Of a stretch of DNA of 64,000 nucleotides, positions 10,293 to 31,063 are shown in pieces. This stretch comes from Sphingomonas sp. (lineage in GTDB: Bacteria > Pseudomonadota > Alphaproteobacteria > Sphingomonadales > Sphingomonadaceae): contig NZ_CBDATN010000003.1 of the NCBI RefSeq assembly GCF_965200105.1, positions 225,863-289,862 on the forward strand. The letters run 5' to 3'. Both the position numbers and the translations under genes were made by a program. Every line of letters starts with the position of its first letter. Within the stretch, counting starts at the first letter, position 1. A model generated the notes under the pieces. It was not told the origin of the DNA. It did not search any database and was given only the letters and a program-made list of their open reading frames with translations.

Positions 10293-10886
10293 CTAATAAA
10301 GCTGCTCACGCTCGCGATCGGCGCGGGCGTGTTGGCGGTTGTTGAAGTCGGCGATGGCTCGCCGCGCGGCGCGCAGCTCGGAGCCAGGCATATCGGCTAT
10401 GACCGCGCGCGCCTCGGCGGCGCTCAGGCCCTTCTGCCGGACGAGCCGCTGATACTCAGCGCGGTGCTCGGGCAGGATGTCCGCAAGGCGCGTCTGGGTG
10501 ATCGCCTGCCCCGCCCGCTTGCGGATCTCGGGATCTCGGTTGCGGGCGCGGACGTCGTCGCGGCTCAAATAGTCACGGTACTGTCGGTGACCGTGCTCGA
10601 CGAGCTTCGCCCGCTTCTCAGGATCGCGAAGCGCAGCCGCCTGCGCTGCTTGGATGCGCACGGCGAGCATCGCCTTTACATCGGGGCGGGCGTAGTAGGC
10701 GGCCTGCGCCGCTTGACGTTTCGCCTCGATTTCAGGTCGCGCGCGCAGGCTATGCCCGGCGCACGAGCGGCAGTGCGTTGTTGGCTTGGCCGCCTTGCAC
10801 GCACCGGGCGCGCGACAGTGCTGGCGCATTGGCAACACTTCATCGGCCGCAGAAGCACCCGCTTCCGCGTCAGTCCCTACATCCAT
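10293..10886 (-). CDS. Hypothetical phage protein
   Basis: Strong RBS (GGAGGAG); Cys/His cluster (HC..C, HCRSC) followed by a helical basic region. Confidence 0.6.
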   Translation of the reverse strand: MDVGTDAEAGASAADEVLPMRQHCRAPGACKAAKPTTHCRSCAGHSLRARPEIEAKRQAAQAAYYARPDVKAMLAVRIQAAQAAALRDPEKRAKLVEHGHRQYRDYLSRDDVRARNRDPEIRKRAGQAITQTRLADILPEHRAEYQRLVRQKGLSAAEARAVIADMPGSELRAARRAIADFNNRQHARADREREQLY

Positions 10887-10938
10887 CGTTTGCTCCTCCG
10901 GGCGTCGTCAGCCCGCCAGCTCTGTCCCTGTTCGAGCG

Positions 10939-11418
10939 CTATCCACCGACCAACTTCAGCTGTTGCCGGCGCCTGCGATCACGCATCATGTCGACCGCGC
11001 GGCCGGCGGCATCGAGCGCGGGGCCCATCGCATCCAGCTCGCGGTCGTCGATCTTCCCGTCGTCCGACAGCGCCAGCGCGACTTGGTGCAGCAGGCCGGT
11101 GATAGCCGGCAGCGCGTCGCGATCGGTCGCGGCCGACGTCTCCGCCGGCACCAGCTTCATGCCGACGAGCGCCAGCGCGTCGTTGGCGAAGCGGCCGTCC
11201 CAGCGCTCGCACGCGCGCAGGAAGGCGACCGCGCCCATCTCGCCATCGCCCTTGGCGTAGGCCTCGGCGCGATCGCCACTCTTGCCGAGCACGACGCCGA
11301 GATCTTTGAAGGTCGCACCGTCCTCATCCTTAATCCTGGTCAGGCTCTTCCCGAGCGTGTCGAGCAGCAACGACGCGGAAACGGTGCGGTAGCGGGTGTG
11401 GATGTGCCCGTCGGTCAT
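10939..11418 (-). CDS. CII-like phage regulatory protein (putative)
   Basis: HTH-like TFKDLGVVLGKSGDRAEAY; occupies the cII position downstream of cro. Confidence 0.55.
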   Translation of the reverse strand: MTDGHIHTRYRTVSASLLLDTLGKSLTRIKDEDGATFKDLGVVLGKSGDRAEAYAKGDGEMGAVAFLRACERWDGRFANDALALVGMKLVPAETSAATDRDALPAITGLLHQVALALSDDGKIDDRELDAMGPALDAAGRAVDMMRDRRRRQQLKLVGG

Positions 11419-11612
11419 GGCGCATCACCCTGGCTATGGTGGGAACGATCGCTCAGGCCACAGTCGGTGCGCGTGCACGTCCGAGCATGGCCGGTGTTGG
11501 CGAGGTGGCTGCACCCGGCCGCAGGGCAGACGGCGATGAAGCGGGCGCGCTGGGGCTGTGGCAGCGTGATGGCGGCGCCGGTGAGGACATGCGGGTTGAG
11601 GGCGCCGATCAT
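11415..11612 (-). CDS. Hypothetical Cys-rich small protein
   Basis: ATGA-type overlaps with both neighbours. Confidence 0.4.
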   Translation of the reverse strand: MIGALNPHVLTGAAITLPQPQRARFIAVCPAAGCSHLANTGHARTCTRTDCGLSDRSHHSQGDAP

Positions 11613-11809
11613 GCGGCCGCCTGCTGGGCCGTGGGGCGATACGTCGCCATAAACGTCCGGACACGTTGGATTGTCTTGCGACGCGTTTCTCGCCCTGCGC
11701 GAAGTTGTGCTACGAACATCGTGTCGTTGACGGCGTCCCGCCCGAAACGGCTCTCGCGCATCTGATGAGCAGCGCAGAACGTCTCAATGTCAGAGAGAAG
11801 GTCGTCCAT
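11609..11809 (-). CDS. Cro-like repressor
   Basis: MDDLLSDIETFCAAHQMRESRFGRDAVNDTMFVAQLRAGRE; divergent from an XRE repressor. Confidence 0.8.
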   Translation of the reverse strand: MDDLLSDIETFCAAHQMRESRFGRDAVNDTMFVAQLRAGRETRRKTIQRVRTFMATYRPTAQQAAA

Positions 11810-11814
11810 GCCGA

Positions 11815-11870
11815 AGCTATGCGACGGACATATCCGTCGCGTCAAGTAGTTCGTGACGGATATGTCCGTA
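11815..11870. promoter_or_regulatory. OR-like operators and cro promoter
   Basis: GACGGA-CATA-TCCGTC (11823-11838) and GACGGA-TATG-TCCGTA (11855-11870). Minus-strand TTGACG (11845-11840) and GCATAGCT (11822-11815) flank the first operator. Confidence 0.8.
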
Positions 11871-11908
11871 GATTGTGGCTTGAGGTTGGGGCGTGGGATA
11901 CGCCCGAC

Positions 11909-12358
11909 ATGGATCTGCCGAGGTTCGATCTGTCGACGGTCGTGGCCGTTCTGCGCGAGCGGACCGGCCAAGACGGGCCGTTCTCCATGCGGGGCTTATC
12001 GAAGGCGGCGTGCCAGCACCGCGATACGGTAAGCGACATCATCGCTGGGCGAAACAGAAACCCGACCATCAGGGTACTCTCGGCGCTCGCGGAAGCGATG
12101 GGCGAGGATCTGTCGGTCTTCGGAATCGAGCTTTCCCGGCGGGCTGATGTTCCTACTGAGGCGGAGTTAGAGCAGGCGCTCCGAAGCGCGCTCCCGGATA
12201 TGCCGCGAGGTTCGCCGGACAAACGCGCCCGATTTCTCGCCGAATCCGTAGCACGGCTATTGCAGCTTCCTCCATCTCGTCCAGCCAACGGCGTTGAGCA
12301 ACCAAGTCAAGCGGGCGGTCGCGAAGAAGTCGCTCCTCCTCACGCAGCCACCAGCTGA
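11909..12358 (+). CDS. CI-like XRE-family repressor lacking the S24 peptidase domain
   Basis: FSMRGLSKAACQHRDTVSDIIAGRNRNPTIRVLSALAEAM HTH. 149 aa with no Ser/Lys autocleavage motifs in the C-terminus. Confidence 0.8.
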   Translation: MDLPRFDLSTVVAVLRERTGQDGPFSMRGLSKAACQHRDTVSDIIAGRNRNPTIRVLSALAEAMGEDLSVFGIELSRRADVPTEAELEQALRSALPDMPRGSPDKRARFLAESVARLLQLPPSRPANGVEQPSQAGGREEVAPPHAATS

Positions 12359-12455
12359 GGGTGATCTGCTTGGCAGCGCATTCACGAAAGCACGGCGTGC
12401 AACCGAGGTCGCACGCCGGCTCCGTGAGCGGGGTGTTGCGAGTCGCCCGAGCCAC

Positions 12456-12470
12456 GTTCATCGTATGTTC
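12456..12470 (+). promoter_or_regulatory. Alphaproteobacterial LexA (SOS) box
   Basis: GTTC-ATCGTAT-GTTC is an exact GTTC-N7-GTTC direct repeat, intergenic, and contains a -10-like TATGTT. Confidence 0.7.
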
Positions 12471-12545
12471 TCTGCAATCCAACATGTCTAGGGATTTCCC
12501 TATCGGGCGCGCAGCCGCTCGGCGATGGCTCGCAAGGGATGGCAG

Positions 12546-12728
12546 ATGATCGAGTTCACAGCTTACCGAGGCGGCAGGGTCGCGGTGAACCCCATGCTGG
12601 TGTTCGCGATCGAGGCTGTGCCGGAGGGCGGCACGCAGATCGTGTCGGCCGCTGGCGGTGTCGTCGTCGTGAAGGAGGAGTTCGGCGAGGTGCATCGGCG
12701 GATCGGTGCCTGGGCGAAGAGCGGGTGA
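12546..12728 (+). CDS. 60-aa FlbD/SwrD-like small protein
   Basis: MIEFT...VAVNPMLVFAIEAVPEGGTQIV...VVVKEEFGEVHRRI follows the FlbD pattern (MI.LT...G....N...I..IE..P..T.I....G....VKE...EV). Confidence 0.65.
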   Translation: MIEFTAYRGGRVAVNPMLVFAIEAVPEGGTQIVSAAGGVVVVKEEFGEVHRRIGAWAKSG

Positions 12729-12913
12729 TGCGGTTGGCTAGTCGCAATGGGGGATAAGCTGACTGGGCTCTTATCGATCGGCGCGACGATTCGTCGAGGC
12801 CTGACCCATGTCAGCGAGCTTCTTGGCATCGAGGCTATTGCAAACGCTATGGGTTGTGACGACGCCCTTCATACGGCTCTTTACGGCTATCCGGCATTTC
12901 GGGTTGATAGACG

Positions 12914-14230
12914 CTAGAACGTGCCACGCTGCAAAGCCCTCGCCAGGGTTGATGCCTTCACGCCGGCCTCGCCGATCTGACACTCGACCATCCGCCTGAT
13001 CTCCTCCGCGCTGGTCGCCAGCGGGAACGAGAAGTGCACCAGGTCGCCGAGGTTCACGAGCGTGCCGTAGCGCAGCAGCGCCTTCGCCCGCAGCGTCTCG
13101 AAGTCGTATCCGAACCCGCGCCGGTTGATCTCGTTGATGCGGCCGTTGAGGTTCTCGACCAGCCCGTTCGTGTAGCGGGCCTCGTAGTAGTTGAAGATCG
13201 GGTTGCCCCAGTGGCGCATGAGCGTGATGACCGGTCGGAAGAACCGGCGCAGGTTCGGCGGCATCGTCTCGACCCACCGGAAGTATGCCGCCTCCGCTGC
13301 CCTTCGATCGTCTAGCTCGTACAGGTCGAAGAACTGCTCCTTGGCGGTGTACGCCGCTTTGAGGAACGGGAACTCGCCGAGGATGGCCGCCATCTTATCT
13401 TGGCGTTCATCCGACATGCCGTCCCAGCGCGAGAGGAAGATGCGGTTCTGGCGTCTCAGCTTCCGCCTGTCTTCGTTGCTCAGCGAAGCTGACAACGACT
13501 TGCGGGCCTCGTCCATCGCCTCGTTCGCGTACCTCACGACGTGGAACTTATCGATCACCACGAGGGCCTTCGGCAGGTAGCGGCTCGCCATCTTCTCGTA
13601 CCCGCGCCACATGTCCTGGCAGAACACTTCGACCTTGTTGTACGCTTCGAGACGCTGGAACAGCGGCTCTATACTCGCCGTGTCGCGCTGGGGCAGCATG
13701 TCGAGGATGGTGCCCGCCTCGATGTCGGCGCAGACGAAGCGGTCACCGCCGAGGATGCGGTTCTCGTCCACACCGAACACGCGCGGCGGGGTGAACTCGT
13801 AGTCGAGAAGGCGCTTGCGCGCGTAGGTTAAGAAGATGCGCCGGACCAGCGTCGGCTCGACCGCATGGAAGGTTGCGGCATCCTCGAACGGGCGCTTGAT
13901 CGCGGAGCGCACGATATCGTTCTTCAGCCGCTCCGTGATATAGTGATCGTCATCAACGTGCGGCACCTTCTGGTAGAGCGTGCTGCCGCAGCTCTGGCAT
14001 TTGTACCGCTGCCGGCTGACGACCAGCCACGTCGGCGCGGGCTCGATCCGACGATCACGGTAGCGCACCTGTTTCGTGCCGTTCTTCACCAGCTTGCGGG
14101 CAAGGCAACACAGGTCAATGTCGAGGCGAGTCGGCGCGCAGTGGACCAGGACCTCCGCAAGGTCGCCCTGGTCGTCGTGGACCAGTTTCGGTCGCCCCAC
14201 CTCAAAAAGAGGCAGGCGGAGCCAATTCAC
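12914..14230 (-). CDS. ISL3-family transposase
   Basis: RYKCQSC zinc finger; FGVDE, FCQDMW and VIDKFHVV (DDE core); YTNGLVENLNGRINEINRRGFGY. Confidence 0.93.
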   Translation of the reverse strand: MNWLRLPLFEVGRPKLVHDDQGDLAEVLVHCAPTRLDIDLCCLARKLVKNGTKQVRYRDRRIEPAPTWLVVSRQRYKCQSCGSTLYQKVPHVDDDHYITERLKNDIVRSAIKRPFEDAATFHAVEPTLVRRIFLTYARKRLLDYEFTPPRVFGVDENRILGGDRFVCADIEAGTILDMLPQRDTASIEPLFQRLEAYNKVEVFCQDMWRGYEKMASRYLPKALVVIDKFHVVRYANEAMDEARKSLSASLSNEDRRKLRRQNRIFLSRWDGMSDERQDKMAAILGEFPFLKAAYTAKEQFFDLYELDDRRAAEAAYFRWVETMPPNLRRFFRPVITLMRHWGNPIFNYYEARYTNGLVENLNGRINEINRRGFGYDFETLRAKALLRYGTLVNLGDLVHFSFPLATSAEEIRRMVECQIGEAGVKASTLARALQRGTF

Positions 14231-14478
14231 GTTCGTTTCGCGCGTTCCGCTAGAGCTTTGATCTCTTCGGGTGGTTCACCCCACCAAGTGAACTCGACCG
14301 TTGCGGTGAACCTAGGCGGTTCTCGCCGCCAAGGATTGTGTTCGTCAAGGTAATCGGTGGAGATTGTGTGCCCTGGGCTCTCTTGGTGAAAGGCAAACGA
14401 GGACACGAAAGCCTCGCCCTCGAAATCCCGGCGGGGCGCTGGTAGGTCGTTTTCAGCCTCGGTCATGGGTCGCTCCAT
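14227..14478 (-). CDS. 83-aa ORF inside the IS, upstream of the transposase
   Basis: Lies within the IRs; its stop overlaps the transposase GTG (GTGA). Confidence 0.55.
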   Translation of the reverse strand: MERPMTEAENDLPAPRRDFEGEAFVSSFAFHQESPGHTISTDYLDEHNPWRREPPRFTATVEFTWWGEPPEEIKALAERAKRT

Positions 14479-15294
14479 GGTTGCGGTTAGAGCCGGGCGG
14501 GGTTGCCTCCCCGTTCCGGCTCGCCCTTTTATCGCGGTTAGGCAGGACCGTCCACCAACCCCAAACGCGGTAGCCTACGATGCGACGATCCTATCCGCAT
14601 CAACCCCGTTTGCTGGATAGCCCTCTTTACACTAAGGGTAACTTCATCGTCTTTCTGCTCACGAGCCTTGCCCTCAGCTTCATCCGCGATCTCGTGATCG
14701 TCGTGACGGAGCGACCGTGATGGCACTTCGGTCGCACTTTCGCCGTTTTGCACCTGTATGAGCGAGAAGCCATGGTGACCGTTGTAGCCTTCGCTGGCGC
14801 CTATTTTGCCCTCGCGACCGTTCTGGCGGTTGCAGCTACGCGCTACCGGCGTCGCGCTCGGGAGATCGTGGAAGCGATTCTCGCCGAGGCCGGCTCTGAT
14901 CAAGAGCGCGGAATGTTGGAGTTCACGCTGGCTTCATTGAACTCGATGCGTATGGCGCCAGCGGTGACATTGTCGTTCTTACATGGTCTAGTTATTCCAC
15001 GTAGGACGTTGGGAAACCTTGCAAACTCATACCGAGAAGATTGTCCGGTTCTGAGTTGCCATCCACTCCGTCACCAGCTCGCTGAGAGCGTCATGGCTTC
15101 TTATGCTGCGGCAAATCCCATCTTTGGTGTGACCGCTTATCTGGCGCGCTGGCTTTATGCTGCGCGCCTCGTTCACCTGCATCACGCAGCCAAGCCTGCG
15201 ACCGACGTGAGGGTTCTGGCCGCCGCTTGCTGAGTCGGTCTTGCGCACCCTCTCACTCGCCTGCGTAGGCGCCGGCTGATCGCTGCCGCTATCG

Positions 15295-15322
15295 TTGACT
15301 CCCAAGCGCAACCGGTCATTCT
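15295..15322 (+). promoter_or_regulatory. Putative sigma70 promoter of the exported-protein gene
   Basis: TTGACT (15295-15300), then 16 nt, then CATTCT. Confidence 0.4.
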
Positions 15323-15358
15323 CCTGCCGCCAGACAGGGCTGGCTACAGGGGGTTAGT

Positions 15359-16000
15359 ATGATGAGAGTATTGGCCGTCGCGGCGAGCTTCGCAGTGGCT
15401 GTATCCGCGCTTGCGCAGACCGGCTGGACGCAGCAGCCGATCGTGCTTGGCTCCGCCGCTAACACAAGCGTTCTGCGCGCCGGTACGGCGATCCCGATGC
15501 GGACGAGCGAGGAGCTGACGACCAAGGGCAAGGCGCTCCGCGTCGGGCAGCGTTTCAGGATTGAAACCACCGAGCCCGTAACGCTGAACGGCCAGACCGT
15601 GATTCCGGTTGGCACGCCCGGCATGGGCGAGGTCACGTCCGTCCGCAACAAGGGCATGTGGGGCAAGTCCGGCAACATTGAGGCACACGTCCTCTACCTG
15701 CGCGTCGGTGATCGTCAGTTCCGCCTCTCCGGCACCATGAACGATAAGGGCAAGACCGGCACGGCGGGCGTCGTCGGCGCGGTCGCGCTGGTGCCGATTG
15801 CGGGCTTCTTCATGACTGGCACGAGCGCGGCGATCCCGATGGGCGCGCCGGTCAATGCGTTCCTCGACGAGGACGTGCCAGTGCAGTTCGCAGCCGGCGC
15901 GCCTGCCGCGCTTATCACCGTACCGGCACCAACGACGCCGAGCGGCGCGATCGCGCCTTCTGCGATCGGCAAGACCGTAGCGGTCACGCCTAAGCGGTAA
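15359..16000 (+). CDS. Exported protein with signal peptide (VirB10/TrbI-like beta-rich domain)
   Basis: Signal peptide MMRVLAVAASFAVAVSALAQ; AGTAIPMRTSEEL...VGQRF...VIPVGTPGMGEV...GMWGKSG pattern; C-terminal hydrophobic hairpin. Confidence 0.75.
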   Translation: MMRVLAVAASFAVAVSALAQTGWTQQPIVLGSAANTSVLRAGTAIPMRTSEELTTKGKALRVGQRFRIETTEPVTLNGQTVIPVGTPGMGEVTSVRNKGMWGKSGNIEAHVLYLRVGDRQFRLSGTMNDKGKTGTAGVVGAVALVPIAGFFMTGTSAAIPMGAPVNAFLDEDVPVQFAAGAPAALITVPAPTTPSGAIAPSAIGKTVAVTPKR

Positions 16001-16060
16001 TCGACAGGTCCACGCGTCAGCCTGGCGGTAGGGAGTGGACCACCCGAACGACCGCTAGCA

Positions 16061-16087
16061 AGCCCGGCCTGACCCGCCGGGCTTTTT
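16061..16087 (+). terminator. Rho-independent terminator
   Basis: AGCCCGGC-CTGACCC-GCCGGGCT stem-loop followed by a T-run. Confidence 0.8.
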
Positions 16088-16112
16088 GCTACCTCACGCC
16101 CCCCAAACAAAC

Positions 16113-16166
16113 TGACGGACAGCTCCGTCATGCCTGTTGACTGACGGATATATCCGTCGCTATAAC
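16113..16166 (+). promoter_or_regulatory. PL-like early promoter with two OL-like operators
   Basis: GACGGA-CAGC-TCCGTC (16114-16129) and GACGGA-TATA-TCCGTC (16143-16158). TTGACT (16137-16142) and TATAAC (16161-16166) bracket the second operator. Confidence 0.82.
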
Positions 16167-16212
16167 TTTCCCAGCGCCGTACCCCTGCGGCTTGGGAGCA
16201 AAGCCAGTGCTC

Positions 16213-16662
16213 ATGGAGCGCATCACCCGACCCCACGTCGCCAGCGATGACCCCGACACCGTCGCGGCCGTCGAGAAGTCCCTCCGCATCGTCGCCCTGC
16301 TCGCCGCCGAGCGCGCGAAGCCGTGGCCAAGGCGAGCCGACAACCTCCAGGCGCACAAGAGCCGCATCGGAGGCCTCTTCGCCGAGCTCAACCGGATCGC
16401 CAGCAACGTAGACGGCATGACGCCGAACGAGCTGGAGCAGCTGGGCCGGACGGAGTTGCGGCGCCGAGGGCACGTGCTGCCGAAGGTGACACCCGCCCCG
16501 GATGAGGCGGCGGAGAAGTCTAAGCGCGCAATCGCCGCCGATCTCGACTTGGAGCGCCAGAAGCTCGGCGACGAGGAGGGCAGGATCGTGCCCCGGCCCA
16601 AGCGGCTCGCGGCGCTGCGGCAGAGCGTTGCGGACCTGGAGCAGAAGGTCGCCTCGCTGTGA
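16213..16662 (+). CDS. Hypothetical early protein
   Basis: First ORF after PL; GC-rich third positions; coiled-coil C-terminus. Confidence 0.65.
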   Translation: MERITRPHVASDDPDTVAAVEKSLRIVALLAAERAKPWPRRADNLQAHKSRIGGLFAELNRIASNVDGMTPNELEQLGRTELRRRGHVLPKVTPAPDEAAEKSKRAIAADLDLERQKLGDEEGRIVPRPKRLAALRQSVADLEQKVASL

Positions 16663-16898
16663 GCGCGCACTTCCGCCCGCCCGTGGCGTCGGAGCAGTTC
16701 GGCACCGTCGAGCAGTTCGTCACCGCGACCACCGCGCCCGCCTGCCGCGGCGATCGCCTCTGCCGCTGCCGGACCTGCAAGCCGTCGCTCGTGGACGTCA
16801 TCAGCTGGCGCGATCGGCTCATCAATGCGGCGCTGTTCTCGGCCCCGGTGGCGATCCTCGCCGCCGACTTCGCCTACCTTGCTGGGCTGATCCGGTGA
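16659..16898 (+). CDS. Hypothetical early protein (C-terminal hydrophobic segment)
   Basis: GTGA overlaps at both ends. Confidence 0.55.
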   Translation: MSAHFRPPVASEQFGTVEQFVTATTAPACRGDRLCRCRTCKPSLVDVISWRDRLINAALFSAPVAILAADFAYLAGLIR

Positions 16899-17299
16899 CG
16901 GACGAGACGACCTTGCCTCGCCCCACCGGTGAATATGCGATCGTCGAGTGCCTCGGGCACCGCACGCTCGTCGGCCGCACCTCCGAGATCGAGCGCTTCG
17001 GCACAAAGATGCTGTCGATTGAGCCGATCTGGAAAGACGAGTTGCTTCCGCCCGTCTTGGTCGGCGGATCGTCGCTCTACGCATTCACGCCGTGCTCGGC
17101 AGAGGCCGCGTTCAAGCGCCAGGCGAAGAGCGACTACGACCTGCCGCTGAGCCTGCGCGCCACGCTGCCGGCGCCCGCCCTCCCTGCGCCGAACGACGAA
17201 GGCGGCGGGGGTCACGAGCCGGAGTTCTCGTCGAGCTTTCGCGACAGGAAGCTGCCTGGTGACGACGACAGCGAGATCGACAGCGAGATGCCGTTCTGA
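16895..17299 (+). CDS. Conserved hypothetical phage protein
   Basis: GTG start; EYAIVECLGHRTLVGRTSEIERFGTKMLSIE pattern typical of alphaproteobacterial phage proteins; acidic tail ending MPF. Confidence 0.7.
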   Translation: MTDETTLPRPTGEYAIVECLGHRTLVGRTSEIERFGTKMLSIEPIWKDELLPPVLVGGSSLYAFTPCSAEAAFKRQAKSDYDLPLSLRATLPAPALPAPNDEGGGGHEPEFSSSFRDRKLPGDDDSEIDSEMPF

Positions 17300-20242: not shown

Positions 20243-20484
20243 GCGCCGCCGAGAAGCTCGACGAGCGCCTCCCGTTCTGGCCTGTCGCAATGGCCCGGCC
20301 GATGGCGCTCGCCTACACCGGCGTCAGCGAAGCGCAGATGCGTGCATGGGAGAAGACTGGGCTCGTCCATTTCCGCACGCGCGGTCCACACGGCGCCGCG
20401 ATCGTCCAGCGTGCCGAACTCGACATGGCGGTCGCGGACCTCTTCTCGCGCGATCTCTCCGAGGATCTCGACTTTGGCGACTGA
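20239..20484 (+). CDS. Putative excisionase (winged-HTH)
   Basis: MARPMALAYTGVSEAQMRAWEKTG HTH; immediately upstream of and overlapping the integrase. Confidence 0.65.
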   Translation: MSAAEKLDERLPFWPVAMARPMALAYTGVSEAQMRAWEKTGLVHFRTRGPHGAAIVQRAELDMAVADLFSRDLSEDLDFGD

Positions 20485-21742
20485 GCGCCTCCCGTCCTAC
20501 GTGAACGTGCGGCGCCTCGCCGGCGGCAAGCGGGCCTATTACTGGATCCGCCCGGCCTGGGCGGACCCGCGGCTCGCCGACGCCAAGGATGAGAAAGTCC
20601 GCGCCCGCGCTGTCCGCCATGGCCGCACATGCCCGGTCATCTCCACCGCGCTCGGCACCGAGCTGTCCGCCGCGATCGCCAAGGCCGACGTCCTCAACGC
20701 CACCTTCGCCGAGTGGCGGGAGGGCTCGCCGGAGAAGCCGACCACCGGCACGATCCGCTGGCTGTTCGACTGGTATCGGCGCCACGAGCGCTTCACCGGC
20801 CTACGGCACGCCAGCCGCGCCGGCTACCGGATCGCGATGGATGCGGTCGACGCGATCGAGATGCGCACCGGCACCTTCGGCCTGCGCCAGGCGGCCGCCG
20901 TCGACGCTGCCGCAGCGGATACCCTCTACCGCAAGGCGCGCGAGAAACACGGCGAGCGCCAGGGCGCCTACATGATGCAGGTCTGCCGCCTCGTGTGGAA
21001 CCAGGCCGTCCGCTACGGCAAGGCCACCGGCGTCAAGGCGAACCCGTTCTCGGGCATGGGGATCAAGGCGAGTTCGGGCGCCGGTCGCGGCAACCGCGCG
21101 GCGACACGCGCGGAGTACGACGCGTACCGGGCGAAGGCGCGCGAGCTGGGCCGGCAGAGCATGGCGACCGCGGCGGCGCTGTGCTTCGAGGGCTGTCAGC
21201 GCGTGACGGACGCCTTCGGCTTCGTCGATCCCGACGGCCACGAGCGCGGCATCCGGTGGAGTGGCTACCGCCCCGGCGGCGAGCTGCGGCTGATTCAGTC
21301 CAAGACGGGCAACGCCGTCGAGATACCGCTCACCGACACGATCGGCGGCGAGGTCGTCGCGCTCTACCCGGAGCTGGAGGAGGAGATGGCGCGCACCGAC
21401 CGGCCGGACGATCCGGAGGCGATGATCGTCCGCGATGAGCGCACGGGGCAGCCCTACACCAGCGGCTACGCGAAGACGCTGCACCGGCGCATCCGCGATG
21501 CCGCCGGCCTACCGAAGGATCTGCGCTTCACAAGCTTCCGGCATGGCGGGCTGACCGAGATCGGAGACAGCGGCGAGGCCGACGTGCGCGCGATCAGCGG
21601 ACACAGCACGCTTGAGGTCACGCGGATCTACAACAAGGCGAACACCGAGAAGGCGAAGCGGATCGCGGCCGCGCGGCGCGAGCATATCGGGCGGCTGACT
21701 GCGGGCGCAGAAGAGGCTGCGGAGGCCGAGCCGGCCTTATGA
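20474..21742 (+). CDS. Tyrosine recombinase/integrase
   Basis: TTG start (LATERLPSYVNVRR). Catalytic-type residues: CQR, QSKT, TSFRH, SGH and RIY. Adjacent to att. Confidence 0.9.
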   Translation: MATERLPSYVNVRRLAGGKRAYYWIRPAWADPRLADAKDEKVRARAVRHGRTCPVISTALGTELSAAIAKADVLNATFAEWREGSPEKPTTGTIRWLFDWYRRHERFTGLRHASRAGYRIAMDAVDAIEMRTGTFGLRQAAAVDAAAADTLYRKAREKHGERQGAYMMQVCRLVWNQAVRYGKATGVKANPFSGMGIKASSGAGRGNRAATRAEYDAYRAKARELGRQSMATAAALCFEGCQRVTDAFGFVDPDGHERGIRWSGYRPGGELRLIQSKTGNAVEIPLTDTIGGEVVALYPELEEEMARTDRPDDPEAMIVRDERTGQPYTSGYAKTLHRRIRDAAGLPKDLRFTSFRHGGLTEIGDSGEADVRAISGHSTLEVTRIYNKANTEKAKRIAAARREHIGRLTAGAEEAAEAEPAL

Positions 21743-29938: not shown

Positions 29939-30064
29939 ACGCCGATCCAACAGCCAGATTGGCGTGAAAGCTCCTCGCGCAGTTACAAAGCGACAGTCAC
30001 TGAACGAACGCCTCGGTTGCAATGCGAGTACCGGCTATAGATGCTTCACACGAGGGGAGCCGCC

Positions 30065-31063
30065 ATGATGGGCTGGATCGGACCGCACGAGCTGTCGTTT
30101 CTCCTCGGCTATCTACTCTTAACGATGGCTCTCTCCGCCGCAATCACAACAGGGGTGACGCGGATCGGCAACGGACGGATTGCGTTCCTGGCACCATTTC
30201 TGGGCAGCCTCCTGATGCCAGCCGGTCTCATCGGGTGGGCCGCCGCCATCCTGGTCTTCTACCCGGAAAGGCCGTCGCCGGACGACGCCGCGATGATAGT
30301 GGCGGTCGCGCTGTTAATCCTCTCGGTTCTGACGCTTCCTTTCTCAACCGCCGCAAGCGCATGGACCGCGGAACGCCATTCGAGCCGATGTGGCACAACG
30401 TCATCTAGCCGGCGATCGAGACTGCATGTCGTCGGCTACGTCGCGACGGCCATCGTCGCTTTCGAGATCGTCGGCGTCGCTGTCGCCTCGGTTTCAGCGT
30501 GGCTCCAGCAAAAGCGCATCGGCGATCGATATGCGGAGAACACACGAACGGCTCCGTTTCCGCTCGCCAAGTACGAGACCAGTTCCTCGAACTCCCCGAT
30601 CTTGTTGAACATGCGTCGACTCCGCAGTCTCGCCGCAATGGACGGCGACGGCATCCGCTTCTTCGCCATGCCGGCATTGGGACTGAGATGGTACTCGGTC
30701 GCGGTGTACCTACCGATGCATGGCGACACGGCGCGAGGACAGCTGATCGTCACGGACCAGCACCGCAAAGGAGACCATGTTCTATCGGTCATCGACTTCA
30801 CGATCGCCAAACCGGCCTATGCCGCGATGGCGACGGCACTGGACCGGGAGACCTCCGGATATCCCGGCTACAGACGGATGTGCGTCGACGGCACGTACGT
30901 CGCTTTCGAGCAGGTACATGGGCAGGCGGTGACCAGCGGTTCGGGATCGGCGTCGTGCAGCGACCACTACGAAGCCGTGAGCCTCATAGTCCTTCGCGGA
31001 CTTAGCCAGGCCTGGCCTCGTCTCCCGCTTCCGCAGGGCGGTGATTGGATGCCGCCAAAATAG
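30065..31063 (+). CDS. Orphan membrane protein (about 4 TM plus soluble C-terminal domain)
   Basis: GAGGGGAG RBS; four hydrophobic segments; visibly more A/T-rich than flanking genes. Confidence 0.6.
   Translation: MMGWIGPHELSFLLGYLLLTMALSAAITTGVTRIGNGRIAFLAPFLGSLLMPAGLIGWAAAILVFYPERPSPDDAAMIVAVALLILSVLTLPFSTAASAWTAERHSSRCGTTSSSRRSRLHVVGYVATAIVAFEIVGVAVASVSAWLQQKRIGDRYAENTRTAPFPLAKYETSSSNSPILLNMRRLRSLAAMDGDGIRFFAMPALGLRWYSVAVYLPMHGDTARGQLIVTDQHRKGDHVLSVIDFTIAKPAYAAMATALDRETSGYPGYRRMCVDGTYVAFEQVHGQAVTSGSGSASCSDHYEAVSLIVLRGLSQAWPRLPLPQGGDWMPPK

What the first reader, a model, noticed from the sequence alone, without database searches (positions are those of the whole stretch)
12747..15233. Hidden 246-codon membrane gene in the immunity region, split by the IS and carrying a nonsense codon
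Excising the IS in silico gives MGDKLTGLLSIG...LHTALY|TKGNFIVFLLTSLALSFIRDLVIVVTERP*WHFGRTFAVLHLYEREAMVTVVAFAGAYFALATVLAVAA...AAAC. It is one frame with at least two strong TM segments and a single TGA (14718). It begins 19 nt after the LexA-boxed gene, in the position of lambda rexAB. It is plausibly a superinfection-exclusion, abortive-infection or toxic gene; two separate lesions would fit selection against its expression (inference).
Basis: partly seen in the sequence, partly recalled or inferred. Interest (0 to 1): 0.65.

Follow-up and report, generated by a model that had tools for sequence, protein, structure and literature searches.

The report
Two membrane genes, one IS-split
The supposed single broken 246-codon gene is really two adjacent small membrane-protein genes that travel together as an uncharacterised cassette in Sphingomonadales phages and chromosomes. 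Only the first gene (75 codons) is broken, by an insertion sequence, and the "nonsense codon" is its normal stop.

Summary
The sequence observation is correct. Removing a 1738-bp ISL3 element (12885..14622, 8-bp target duplication CTCTTTAC) joins 12747..12884 to 14631..15233 in one frame, with a single TGA at 14718.

A sensitive search of 1.84 billion representative proteins found 35 relatives of about 155 aa (126-178 aa). All start at their own Met, opposite the ATG at 14772. It also found two relatives of 76-79 aa that cover residues 2-73 and span the IS junction. Nothing spans the TGA.

In 10 independent loci a 70-94-aa orfA-like gene directly precedes a 155-171-aa orfB-like gene. The frame offsets are 0, 1 or 2. 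Four pairs have ATGA overlaps and one has a 3-nt gap.

So orfA (75 aa) is split by the IS, the TGA is its native stop, and orfB (153 aa, 14772..15233) is intact.

The pair behaves as a moron-like cassette. Its GC is lower than its flanks in all 11 loci, it has its own terminator in two phages, and it sits at different phage and chromosomal sites.

No Pfam, PHROG, PADLOC, PDB or BFVD match exists, although the orfB model is very confident (pLDDT 95.7). Function is untested; a membrane exclusion or defence complex is my inference.

The parts
12747..12884 (+). orfA, 5' part (codons 1-46, MGDKL...LHTALY). In the present DNA it reads on into the IS and ends at 12917.
   Evidence: The N-terminal MGD, RR16-17, E24 and L45-Y46 are conserved in homologues.
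12877..12884 (.). Left copy of the 8-bp target-site duplication CTCTTTAC
12885..14622 (-). ISL3-family insertion sequence (1738 bp) with imperfect terminal inverted repeats starting GGCTATCC. It is the only copy in the window.
12914..14230 (-). ISL3 transposase, 438 aa, intact
   Evidence: DDE_Tnp_ISL3 4.7e-51, HTH_Tnp_ISL3, Zn_ribbon_ISL3; phrog_5749, 2.5e-91
14227..14478 (-). 83-aa ORF inside the IS, upstream of the transposase gene and overlapping its start by 4 nt. No family match.
14623..14630 (.). Right copy of the target-site duplication CTCTTTAC
14631..14720 (+). orfA, 3' part (codons 47-75, TKGNFIVFLLTSLALSFIRDLVIVVTERP, the transmembrane helix) plus its native TGA stop at 14718-14720
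   Evidence: P0024 and the L009 orfA end at the same alignment position.
14721..14771 (+). 51-nt spacer between orfA and orfB. It happens to be in frame and carries a weak GAGAAG Shine-Dalgarno-like run before the ATG.
   Evidence: Spacers in homologous loci range from -4 to 98 nt.
14772..15233 (+). orfB, 153 aa, intact. It has an N-terminal TM helix plus two further predicted membrane helices, and a conserved S..A.NP.FG motif.
12525..12728 (+). Upstream 67-aa gene with a FlbD-like Pfam match. It is not part of the conserved pair.
   Evidence: PF06289, 1.8e-7. It is absent from the other loci.
12456..12470 (+). GTTC-N7-GTTC, the alphaproteobacterial LexA-box pattern, 55 nt upstream of the 67-aa gene
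   Evidence: The window has 2 matches against 1.05 expected by chance, so the pattern alone is not significant.
11909..12358 (+). HTH (XRE-type) repressor-like gene, 149 aa, upstream and co-directional
   Evidence: HTH_3, 1.5e-5. The start is set by reading the sequence.
11823..11870 (.). Two operator-like palindromes (GACGGACATATCCGTC and GACGGATATGTCCGTA) between divergent genes
   Evidence: 4 sites in the window against 0.14 expected
16114..16158 (.). Two more copies of the same palindrome. The perfect copy lies in the spacer of a TTGACT-N17-TATAAC promoter-like site that heads the rightward genes.

Best explanation
**Shown.** The locus holds two adjacent genes of a conserved two-gene cassette, not one broken gene.
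- orfA (75 aa) has an N-terminal helical segment with an invariant RR pair, then one C-terminal transmembrane helix that ends with a conserved Asp and a V-x-R-P motif. It is interrupted after codon 46 by a recently inserted ISL3 element. Its TGA at 14718 is the normal stop.
- orfB (153 aa, ATG 14772) is intact and keeps every invariant family residue.

**Inferred from context.** The pair is a moron-like accessory cassette that moves among Sphingomonadales phages and chromosomes. In this prophage it sits in the immunity region, downstream of the repressor-like gene.

**Inferred mechanism, untested.**
- The two products assemble into a small inner-membrane heteromer. orfA would contribute one TM helix (N-terminus inside). 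orfB would contribute three (N-terminus outside, C-terminus inside).
- The complex acts at the membrane for the benefit of the element that carries it. The most likely action is excluding or aborting superinfecting phage.
- In this lysogen the IS has knocked out orfA. orfB has probably also lost its native upstream promoter and its coupling to orfA translation, so the module is presumably inactive.
For: **Gene model**
- phmmer against 1.84 billion representatives gave 38 hits. Besides the window's own orfB (P0001), 35 are 126-178 aa, and the full-length ones align from residues 1-15 to query 94 onward. Two (76 and 79 aa) align to query 2-73. None spans the TGA.
- M1 of orfB is invariant in 36 sequences.
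- all 10 independent loci have orfA directly before orfB. Frame offsets are 0, 1 or 2 and spacers are -4 to 98 nt. Four loci have an ATGA overlap (L006, L011, L012, L015) and one has a 3-nt gap (L007).
- P0024 and the L009 orfA stop at the same position as the window's orfA.

**Cassette behaviour**
- the pair has lower GC than its flanks in all 11 loci.
- a strong terminator follows orfB directly inside a tail operon (L002) and between TerL and portal (L007).
- no other window gene is shared with those loci.
- orfA and orfB divergences are correlated (Mantel p about 2e-4).

**Membrane complex**
- hydropathy and charge profiles fit the positive-inside rule.
- the orfB model has pLDDT 95.7 and pTM 0.87 and is all-helical.
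- the orfA homologue folds as a helical hairpin.

**Prophage context**
-.
Against: - There is no functional evidence at all. Pfam, PHROGs and PADLOC gave no hit for either protein, and the NCBIfam scan failed on a bad coordinate.
- Foldseek and HMM searches of PDB and BFVD found nothing meaningful.
- Three loci (L011, L013, L015) are chromosomal with no obvious phage genes, so a host-physiology role is possible.
- The orfA-orfB complex could not be modelled.
- TM2 and TM3 of orfB are only moderately hydrophobic.
- No transcription data exist.
- The family is rare (38 clusters at 50% identity) and was not found in IMG/VR.
Confidence: 0.85

Rival explanations
1. One reading: one 246-codon membrane gene inactivated twice, by an IS and by a TGA nonsense mutation at 14718.
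For: After in-silico excision the two parts share a frame with only one stop. Both parts carry a TM segment.
Against: - No homologue among 38 spans the TGA, and all orfB-type proteins start at the residue matching M94.
- Pairs in other loci are in other frames or overlap by ATGA.
- orfA homologues end at the same position.
- A shared frame is expected by chance in 1 of 3 cases, and 3 of the 8 homologous loci checked also share a frame.
Confidence: 0.03
2. The pair is a toxin-antitoxin or addiction-type module. One membrane protein is toxic and the other neutralises it. The IS hit in orfA would then reflect selection against a toxic partner, or would be tolerated because orfB is no longer expressed.
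For: - The two-gene unit is compact, translationally coupled and co-inherited, and it lies on mobile DNA and beside IS1595 transposases.
- Many orfB C-termini end in non-polar ...AA(V/A/I), which resembles protease-recognised tails (the resemblance is my inference).
Against: - There is no similarity to any known toxin or antitoxin family.
- Neither protein has a DNA-binding domain of the kind type II antitoxins usually carry.
- One IS insertion is a single event and shows no trend.
Confidence: 0.15
3. The pair serves the phage's own lytic cycle, for example as a holin/antiholin-like lysis-timing pair or a membrane factor for DNA entry or exit.
For: - These are small membrane proteins lying in the direction of late operons in L002 and L007.
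- In the window they follow a possibly SOS-controlled gene.
Against: - They are not next to an endolysin or spanin in any locus examined.
- They occupy different positions in unrelated phage backbones and also occur in non-phage chromosomal sites (L011, L015).
- They are followed by their own terminator, which is typical of accessory rather than core genes.
Confidence: 0.1
4. The joined ORF, or either half, is a chance open frame in GC-rich DNA and is not a gene.
For: GC3 is only 0.58-0.79 against 0.82-0.88 in neighbouring genes. High-GC DNA produces many spurious ORFs.
Against: - Both halves have conserved homologues with invariant residues.
- The gene order is conserved in 10 loci.
- The AlphaFold models are confident.
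Confidence: 0.01

Closest known systems
Phage morons (accessory gene cassettes such as the HK97 gp15 superinfection-exclusion moron; from my own knowledge of Juhala et al. 2000 and Cumby et al. 2012)
   Same: - It is a short cassette inserted between core genes of unrelated phage backbones: TerL|portal, within tail genes, and the immunity region.
- Its GC is lower than its surroundings.
- It has its own terminator.
- Its products are small inner-membrane proteins.
   Different: - It has two coupled genes rather than one.
- It has no sequence or fold similarity to gp15 or any PHROG.
- No promoter was demonstrated.
- It is also found outside phages.
- Its function is untested.
Lambda rexA-rexB (abortive-infection pair downstream of cI)
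   Same: It is a two-gene unit that is co-directional with, and downstream of, the repressor-like gene, inside the region bracketed by operator sets. One or both products are membrane proteins.
   Different: - It matched no PADLOC model and no Pfam family.
- The sizes are 75 + 153 aa, against RexA 279 aa (soluble) and RexB 144 aa (4 TM).
- Another gene (67 aa) and a possible separate promoter lie between the repressor gene and the pair.
T4 Imm/Sp and P22 SieA (small inner-membrane exclusion proteins)
   Same: These are small phage-encoded inner-membrane proteins. They are plausible functional analogues.
   Different: There is no homology. Those proteins act singly and are not encoded as a conserved coupled pair.
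ISL3-family insertion sequences
   Same: The inserted element has the DDE_Tnp_ISL3, HTH_Tnp_ISL3 and Zn_ribbon_ISL3 domains, terminal inverted repeats and an 8-bp target duplication.
   Different: It carries an extra 83-aa ORF upstream of the transposase gene. No near-identical copy was found in the plasmid collection.
MotA/MotB, ExbB/ExbD and TolQ/TolR ion-driven membrane complexes
   Same: The resemblance is superficial. A single-pass protein with a conserved acidic residue at its TM is paired with a 3-TM partner (N-terminus outside, C-terminus inside). A FlbD-like gene lies just upstream in the window; my recollection is that flbD sits beside motAB in some flagellar operons.
   Different: - Neither sequence nor fold similarity was detected.
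- The gene order is reversed and the proteins are about half the size.
- The Asp lies at the periplasmic end of the helix, not the cytoplasmic end.
- The FlbD-like gene does not accompany the pair elsewhere.

Membership tests
   38 hits and none spans the junction. Lengths are 76-79 aa or 126-178 aa.
orfA/orfB two-gene cassette (unnamed) | An orfA-like gene (70-94 aa, with RR, a C-terminal TM and Asp) lies immediately upstream of an orfB-like gene (about 155-171 aa, with an N-terminal TM and the NP.FG motif) | tested here: met
   10 of 10 independent loci. The window keeps all invariant residues.
ISL3 insertion sequence | DDE_Tnp_ISL3 transposase with its N-terminal Zn-ribbon and HTH | tested here: met
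   4.7e-51, 1.8e-6 and 4.5e-6, all above the gathering scores.
ISL3 insertion sequence | Terminal inverted repeats and an 8-bp target-site duplication | tested here: met
   the inverted repeats match at 19 of 24 positions, and CTCTTTAC is duplicated exactly.
Lambda RexAB | Sequence homology to RexA or RexB | tested here: not met
   no Pfam or PADLOC match at E <= 0.1 or 1.
Lambda RexAB | Location downstream of the immunity repressor, on the same strand | tested here: met
   This is positional only, and co-transcription was not tested.
Known anti-phage defence systems (PADLOC-DB v2) | A match to any of the 5027 models | tested here: not met
   0 families for the window proteins and for 6 homologues.
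Phage moron | Variable insertion site in otherwise unrelated backbones, with deviant base composition | tested here: met
Phage moron | Own promoter and terminator, with expression from the repressed prophage | tested here: inconclusive
   Terminators were found after orfB in L002 and L007. No consensus promoter was found. No terminator lies directly after orfB in the window. No RNA data exist.
Holin / lysis cassette | Adjacency to endolysin or spanin genes | tested here: not met
   The gene tables show no lysis enzyme beside the pair.
Toxin-antitoxin module | One product is toxic and the other neutralises it | not testable with these tools
   This needs expression experiments.
MotAB/ExbBD/TolQR | MotA_ExbB (PF01618) and ExbD/MotB domains, or their fold | tested here: not met

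The most novel reading that the evidence does not exclude
orfA and orfB form a previously undescribed two-component inner-membrane system with a fold not seen in PDB or BFVD. The system would be carried as a moron by Sphingomonadales phages and mobile islands. It would give the carrier a phage-exclusion, abortive-infection or addiction function, making it a new defence or exclusion family.
Probability: 0.3. Interest if true: 0.55.

Novelty: new member of a known kind. Interest (0 to 1): 0.3.

Why it matters
**Annotation.** The result corrects the gene model. There is one IS-disrupted 75-codon gene plus one intact 153-codon gene. There is no doubly mutated pseudogene, and this locus gives no evidence of repeated selection against expression.

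**A candidate family.** The work exposes a small, rare family of paired membrane proteins with no annotation. It has about 38 clusters at 50% identity, and every named source is in Sphingomonadales. The orfB fold is confidently predicted but unmatched. The pair moves between phage genomes and chromosomes like a moron. Such cassettes are a recurrent source of new exclusion and defence functions, so this pair is a reasonable, cheap candidate for a screen. Nothing here shows that function.

Tried and rejected
1. The word-index search of 5.8 billion proteins with the read-through protein found only the window's own 153-aa product. The sensitive search was needed.
2. Looking up the contig that encodes P0001 returned nothing on record.
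No complex model exists.
4. IMG/VR scans with two family alignments confirmed no loci. The metagenome scan found one short locus. The first GTDB call failed for lack of a conserved stretch, and the second gave 2 loci.
5. I looked for an IS-free allele. Both public runs that hold the region (X1, X2) carry the IS at the same site.
6. For expression, three polyA RNA-seq runs with the same species label had no reads on 10800-16700.
7. The IS has no near-identical copy in PLSDB plasmids or elsewhere in the window.
8. Rfam found nothing in 11000-17000.
9. The stator-like idea (FlbD-like gene, single-TM protein with Asp, 3-TM partner) was rejected. No Pfam, PDB-HMM or Foldseek support was found, and the FlbD-like gene is not linked to the pair elsewhere.
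10. The LexA-box pattern is not statistically distinguishable from chance in this window.
11. The NCBIfam scan failed on a coordinate error and was not repeated.
12. The literature search found no paper on this family.
Full report
**1. The observation**

The region was read directly and reconstructed by script. An insertion sequence occupies 12885..14622 (1738 bp).
- Its ends are imperfect inverted repeats that both begin GGCTATCC, with 19 of the first 24 positions matching.
- It is flanked by a perfect 8-bp direct repeat, CTCTTTAC (12877-12884 and 14623-14630).
- It encodes an intact 438-aa transposase (12914..14230, minus strand). The transposase has DDE_Tnp_ISL3 (E 4.7e-51), HTH_Tnp_ISL3 and Zn_ribbon_ISL3 domains and matches phrog_5749 at 2.5e-91.
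- It also carries an 83-aa ORF (14227..14478, minus strand) with no family match.
- It is the only copy in the window.

Removing the IS and one repeat copy joins 12747..12884 to 14631..15233. The result is 741 nt: 246 codons in one frame plus the terminal stop, with a single internal TGA at 14718. Two strongly hydrophobic stretches lie at residues 51-71 and 94-115. The spacer after the 67-aa gene is 18 nt.

**2. One gene or two**

The word-indexed search of 5.8 billion proteins returned only the window's own 153-aa product, P0001, which starts at ATG 14772. The exhaustive phmmer search of 1.84 billion representatives gave 38 hits.
- Besides P0001 itself, 35 are proteins of 126-178 aa. The full-length ones align from their residues 1-15 to query residue 94 onward.
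- Two, P0024 (76 aa) and P0033 (79 aa), align to query residues 14-71 and 2-73.
- No hit spans the TGA, and none is longer than 178 aa.

In the 36-sequence alignment the initiator Met opposite ATG 14772 is invariant. The two short proteins align across the IS junction between codons 46 and 47. They share M-G-D at the N-terminus, RR16-17, H21, E24, L45-Y46, F54, S62 and D66. The in-silico excision therefore restores a real gene.

I then looked at the DNA around the homologues. In every independent locus an orfA-like gene of 70-94 aa lies directly upstream of the orfB-like gene:
- L001
- L002-L005
- L006 and L007, from Sphingosinicella and Sphingorhabdus genome bins
- L008, and L009/L010
- L011 and L012
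- L013/L014, from Sphingobium algorifonticola, where the orfA-like frame was not called as a gene, and L015/L016

The frame offset from orfA to orfB is 0, 1 or 2 depending on the locus. The spacer runs from -4 nt to 98 nt. Four loci have an ATGA stop/start overlap (L006, L011, L012, L015) and L007 has a 3-nt gap.

The orfA of L009 ends ...VSIRP*, and P0024 ends at the same alignment column as the window's ...VTERP*. The TGA at 14718 is therefore the native stop of orfA. The shared frame in the window is a coincidence, and 3 of the 8 homologous loci checked also share a frame.

The locus has one lesion, not two.

**3. Gene models**

- orfA is 75 aa: 12747..12884 plus 14631..14717, with its stop at 14718-14720. 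It is split after codon 46.
- In the present DNA the 5' part reads into the IS, giving a 56-aa product that lacks the TM helix. An ATG inside the right IS end (14580) opens a 46-aa frame that contains the TM helix.
- orfB is 153 aa (14772..15233). It is full length relative to the family and keeps all invariant and near-invariant residues: R26, R60, S110, A113, N115, P116, F118 and G119.
- GC3 in both genes is low for this genome (0.58-0.79 against 0.82-0.88), but the GC1 > GC3 > GC2 pattern fits coding DNA of lower GC.

**4. What the pair looks like**

*orfA family.* The AlphaFold model of homologue P0033 (pLDDT 81) shows a long N-terminal helix (4-33), a short helix, and the TM helix (46-70). 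The basic RR pair sits in the N-terminal part. The TM helix ends with a conserved Asp followed by V-x-R-P. Longer members add an acidic tail.

*orfB family.* The AlphaFold model is very confident (pLDDT 95.7, pTM 0.87) and all-helical. Family-averaged hydropathy and charge give the following picture:
- one strong TM helix at residues 1-22;
- a basic stretch (net charge about +3);
- a moderately hydrophobic helix at about 59-77;
- an acidic loop;
- a third hydrophobic stretch at about 103-128, which carries the S..A.NP.FG motif;
- a basic tail.

This fits a 3-TM protein with its N-terminus outside and C-terminus inside, obeying the positive-inside rule. That topology is an inference.

The divergences of orfA and orfB across loci are correlated (r 0.53, Mantel p about 2e-4). 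Together with the translational coupling, this points to a co-inherited unit and probably a complex.

**5. Comparison with known families**

- Neither protein matched Pfam or PHROGs, and neither matched PADLOC, where six homologues were also tested. The 36 orfB family members matched no Pfam family either.
- Profile searches of all PDB sequences gave only noise, with E above 0.2.
- Foldseek of the orfB model against PDB and BFVD gave nothing below E 0.8 and TM-scores of at most 0.36.
- Where a source names a member, the name is 'hypothetical protein'.
- The only named organisms are Sphingosinicella, Sphingorhabdus and Sphingobium, all Sphingomonadales.

**6. Genomic behaviour**

The window carries a prophage.
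- An S49 protease, a portal and a TerL lie on the minus strand at 1-5.2 kb. HNH genes and an integrase (20342..21742) lie on the plus strand.
- Four copies of the palindrome GACGGATATATCCGTC (0.14 expected by chance) form two pairs, at 11823/11855 and at 16114/16143.
- The first pair lies between a small leftward gene and the rightward HTH gene (11909..12358, HTH_3).
- The second pair overlaps a TTGACT-N17-TATAAC promoter-like site that heads the rightward genes.
- orfA and orfB lie between these two operator sets, co-directional with the repressor-like gene. Positionally this resembles rexAB in lambda.

Elsewhere the pair occupies quite different sites:
- between TerL and portal (L007);
- between tail genes (L002);
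- near a terminase (L008);
- on an integrase-bearing contig (L001);
- in chromosomal settings, beside IS1595 transposases (L013, L015) or between trpS and a DUF4136 gene (L011).

None of the window genes tested, other than the pair, has a relative in those loci. The pair has a lower GC than its flanks in all 11 loci, by 3 to 20 points. In L002 and L007 a strong intrinsic terminator follows orfB directly, inside what would otherwise be a late operon. This is the pattern of a phage moron or small mobile accessory cassette.

**7. Mechanism**

*Shown.* There are two genes. orfA is disrupted by the IS. orfB is intact. The pair is conserved, coupled and mobile.

*Inferred.*
- The products form a small inner-membrane heteromer.
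- Because the cassette behaves as a moron and its products are membrane proteins with no enzymatic motif, I think the most likely role is protection of the carrier cell or element at the membrane. That would be superinfection exclusion or abortive infection, at about 0.3-0.35.
- A toxin-antitoxin or addiction role comes next, at about 0.15.
- A role in the phage's own lysis or DNA transit follows, at about 0.1.
- The remainder is unknown.

In this lysogen the module is presumably inactive. orfA lacks its TM helix, and orfB has probably lost its native upstream promoter and its translational coupling to orfA. The intact transposase and the perfect target duplication suggest a recent insertion. 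Both public runs that contain the region carry the IS.

**8. Verdict**

The finding is a correct observation with a wrong gene model. It is an ordinary IS insertion into the first gene of an uncharacterised two-gene membrane cassette. The cassette is a modestly interesting candidate for functional testing. Nothing here is surprising to a specialist.

Noticed in passing
window 11823-11870 and 16114-16158: Four copies of a 16-bp palindrome (consensus GACGGATATATCCGTC; 0.14 expected by chance) form two operator-like pairs that bracket the immunity region. The perfect copy sits in the spacer of a TTGACT-N17-TATAAC promoter-like site. They probably bind the HTH protein encoded at 11909..12358.
   Followed up: partly
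window 12456-12470 and 12525-12728: A GTTC-N7-GTTC pattern (the alphaproteobacterial LexA-box pattern) lies 55 nt upstream of a 67-aa gene with a FlbD-like Pfam match (PF06289, 1.8e-7). The repressor-like protein has no detected peptidase domain, so this could be an SOS-controlled antirepressor-type arrangement. The motif count (2 against 1.05 expected) is not significant by itself.
   Followed up: partly
window 15359-16000: A 213-aa ORF with high GC3 (0.82) has an N-terminal signal-peptide-like sequence (MMRVLAVAASFAVAVSALA|QT) and a C-terminal hydrophobic stretch. It has no family match. It lies between orfB and the terminator at 16066-16083, so it may be another accessory (lysogenic-conversion type) gene.
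   Followed up: partly
window 14227-14478 (minus strand): An 83-aa ORF inside the ISL3 element lies upstream of the transposase gene and overlaps it by 4 nt. It has no family match, and this exact sequence is not in the protein collection.
   Followed up: partly
window 11609-11809 (minus strand): A small leftward ORF of about 66 aa (MDDLLSDIETF...), counted from an internal Met, lies divergent from the HTH gene across the operator pair. This is a Cro-like position. PHROG matches are weak only (E about 0.02).
   Followed up: no
L008 5729-6349 and L013 4394-4696: A DUF6471 (PF20075) gene lies within 1-2 kb of the orfA/orfB pair in two unrelated loci. This may be a coincidence or a recurrent neighbour.
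   Followed up: no
L013 4727-5683 and L015 6547-7416: IS1595-family transposase genes lie directly beside the orfA/orfB pair in two chromosomal loci. With the ISL3 insertion in the window, that makes three of eleven loci with an IS in or next to the cassette.
   Followed up: no
orfB family C-termini (alignment A1): Most members end in a non-polar tail such as ...LKAAV, ...LAAAC or ...MKAIA. This is reminiscent of protease-recognition tails.
   Followed up: no
window 30001-31000: GC drops locally to 0.62 in a region that is otherwise 0.70-0.74 GC. It lies outside the prophage part examined and may be another insertion.
   Followed up: no
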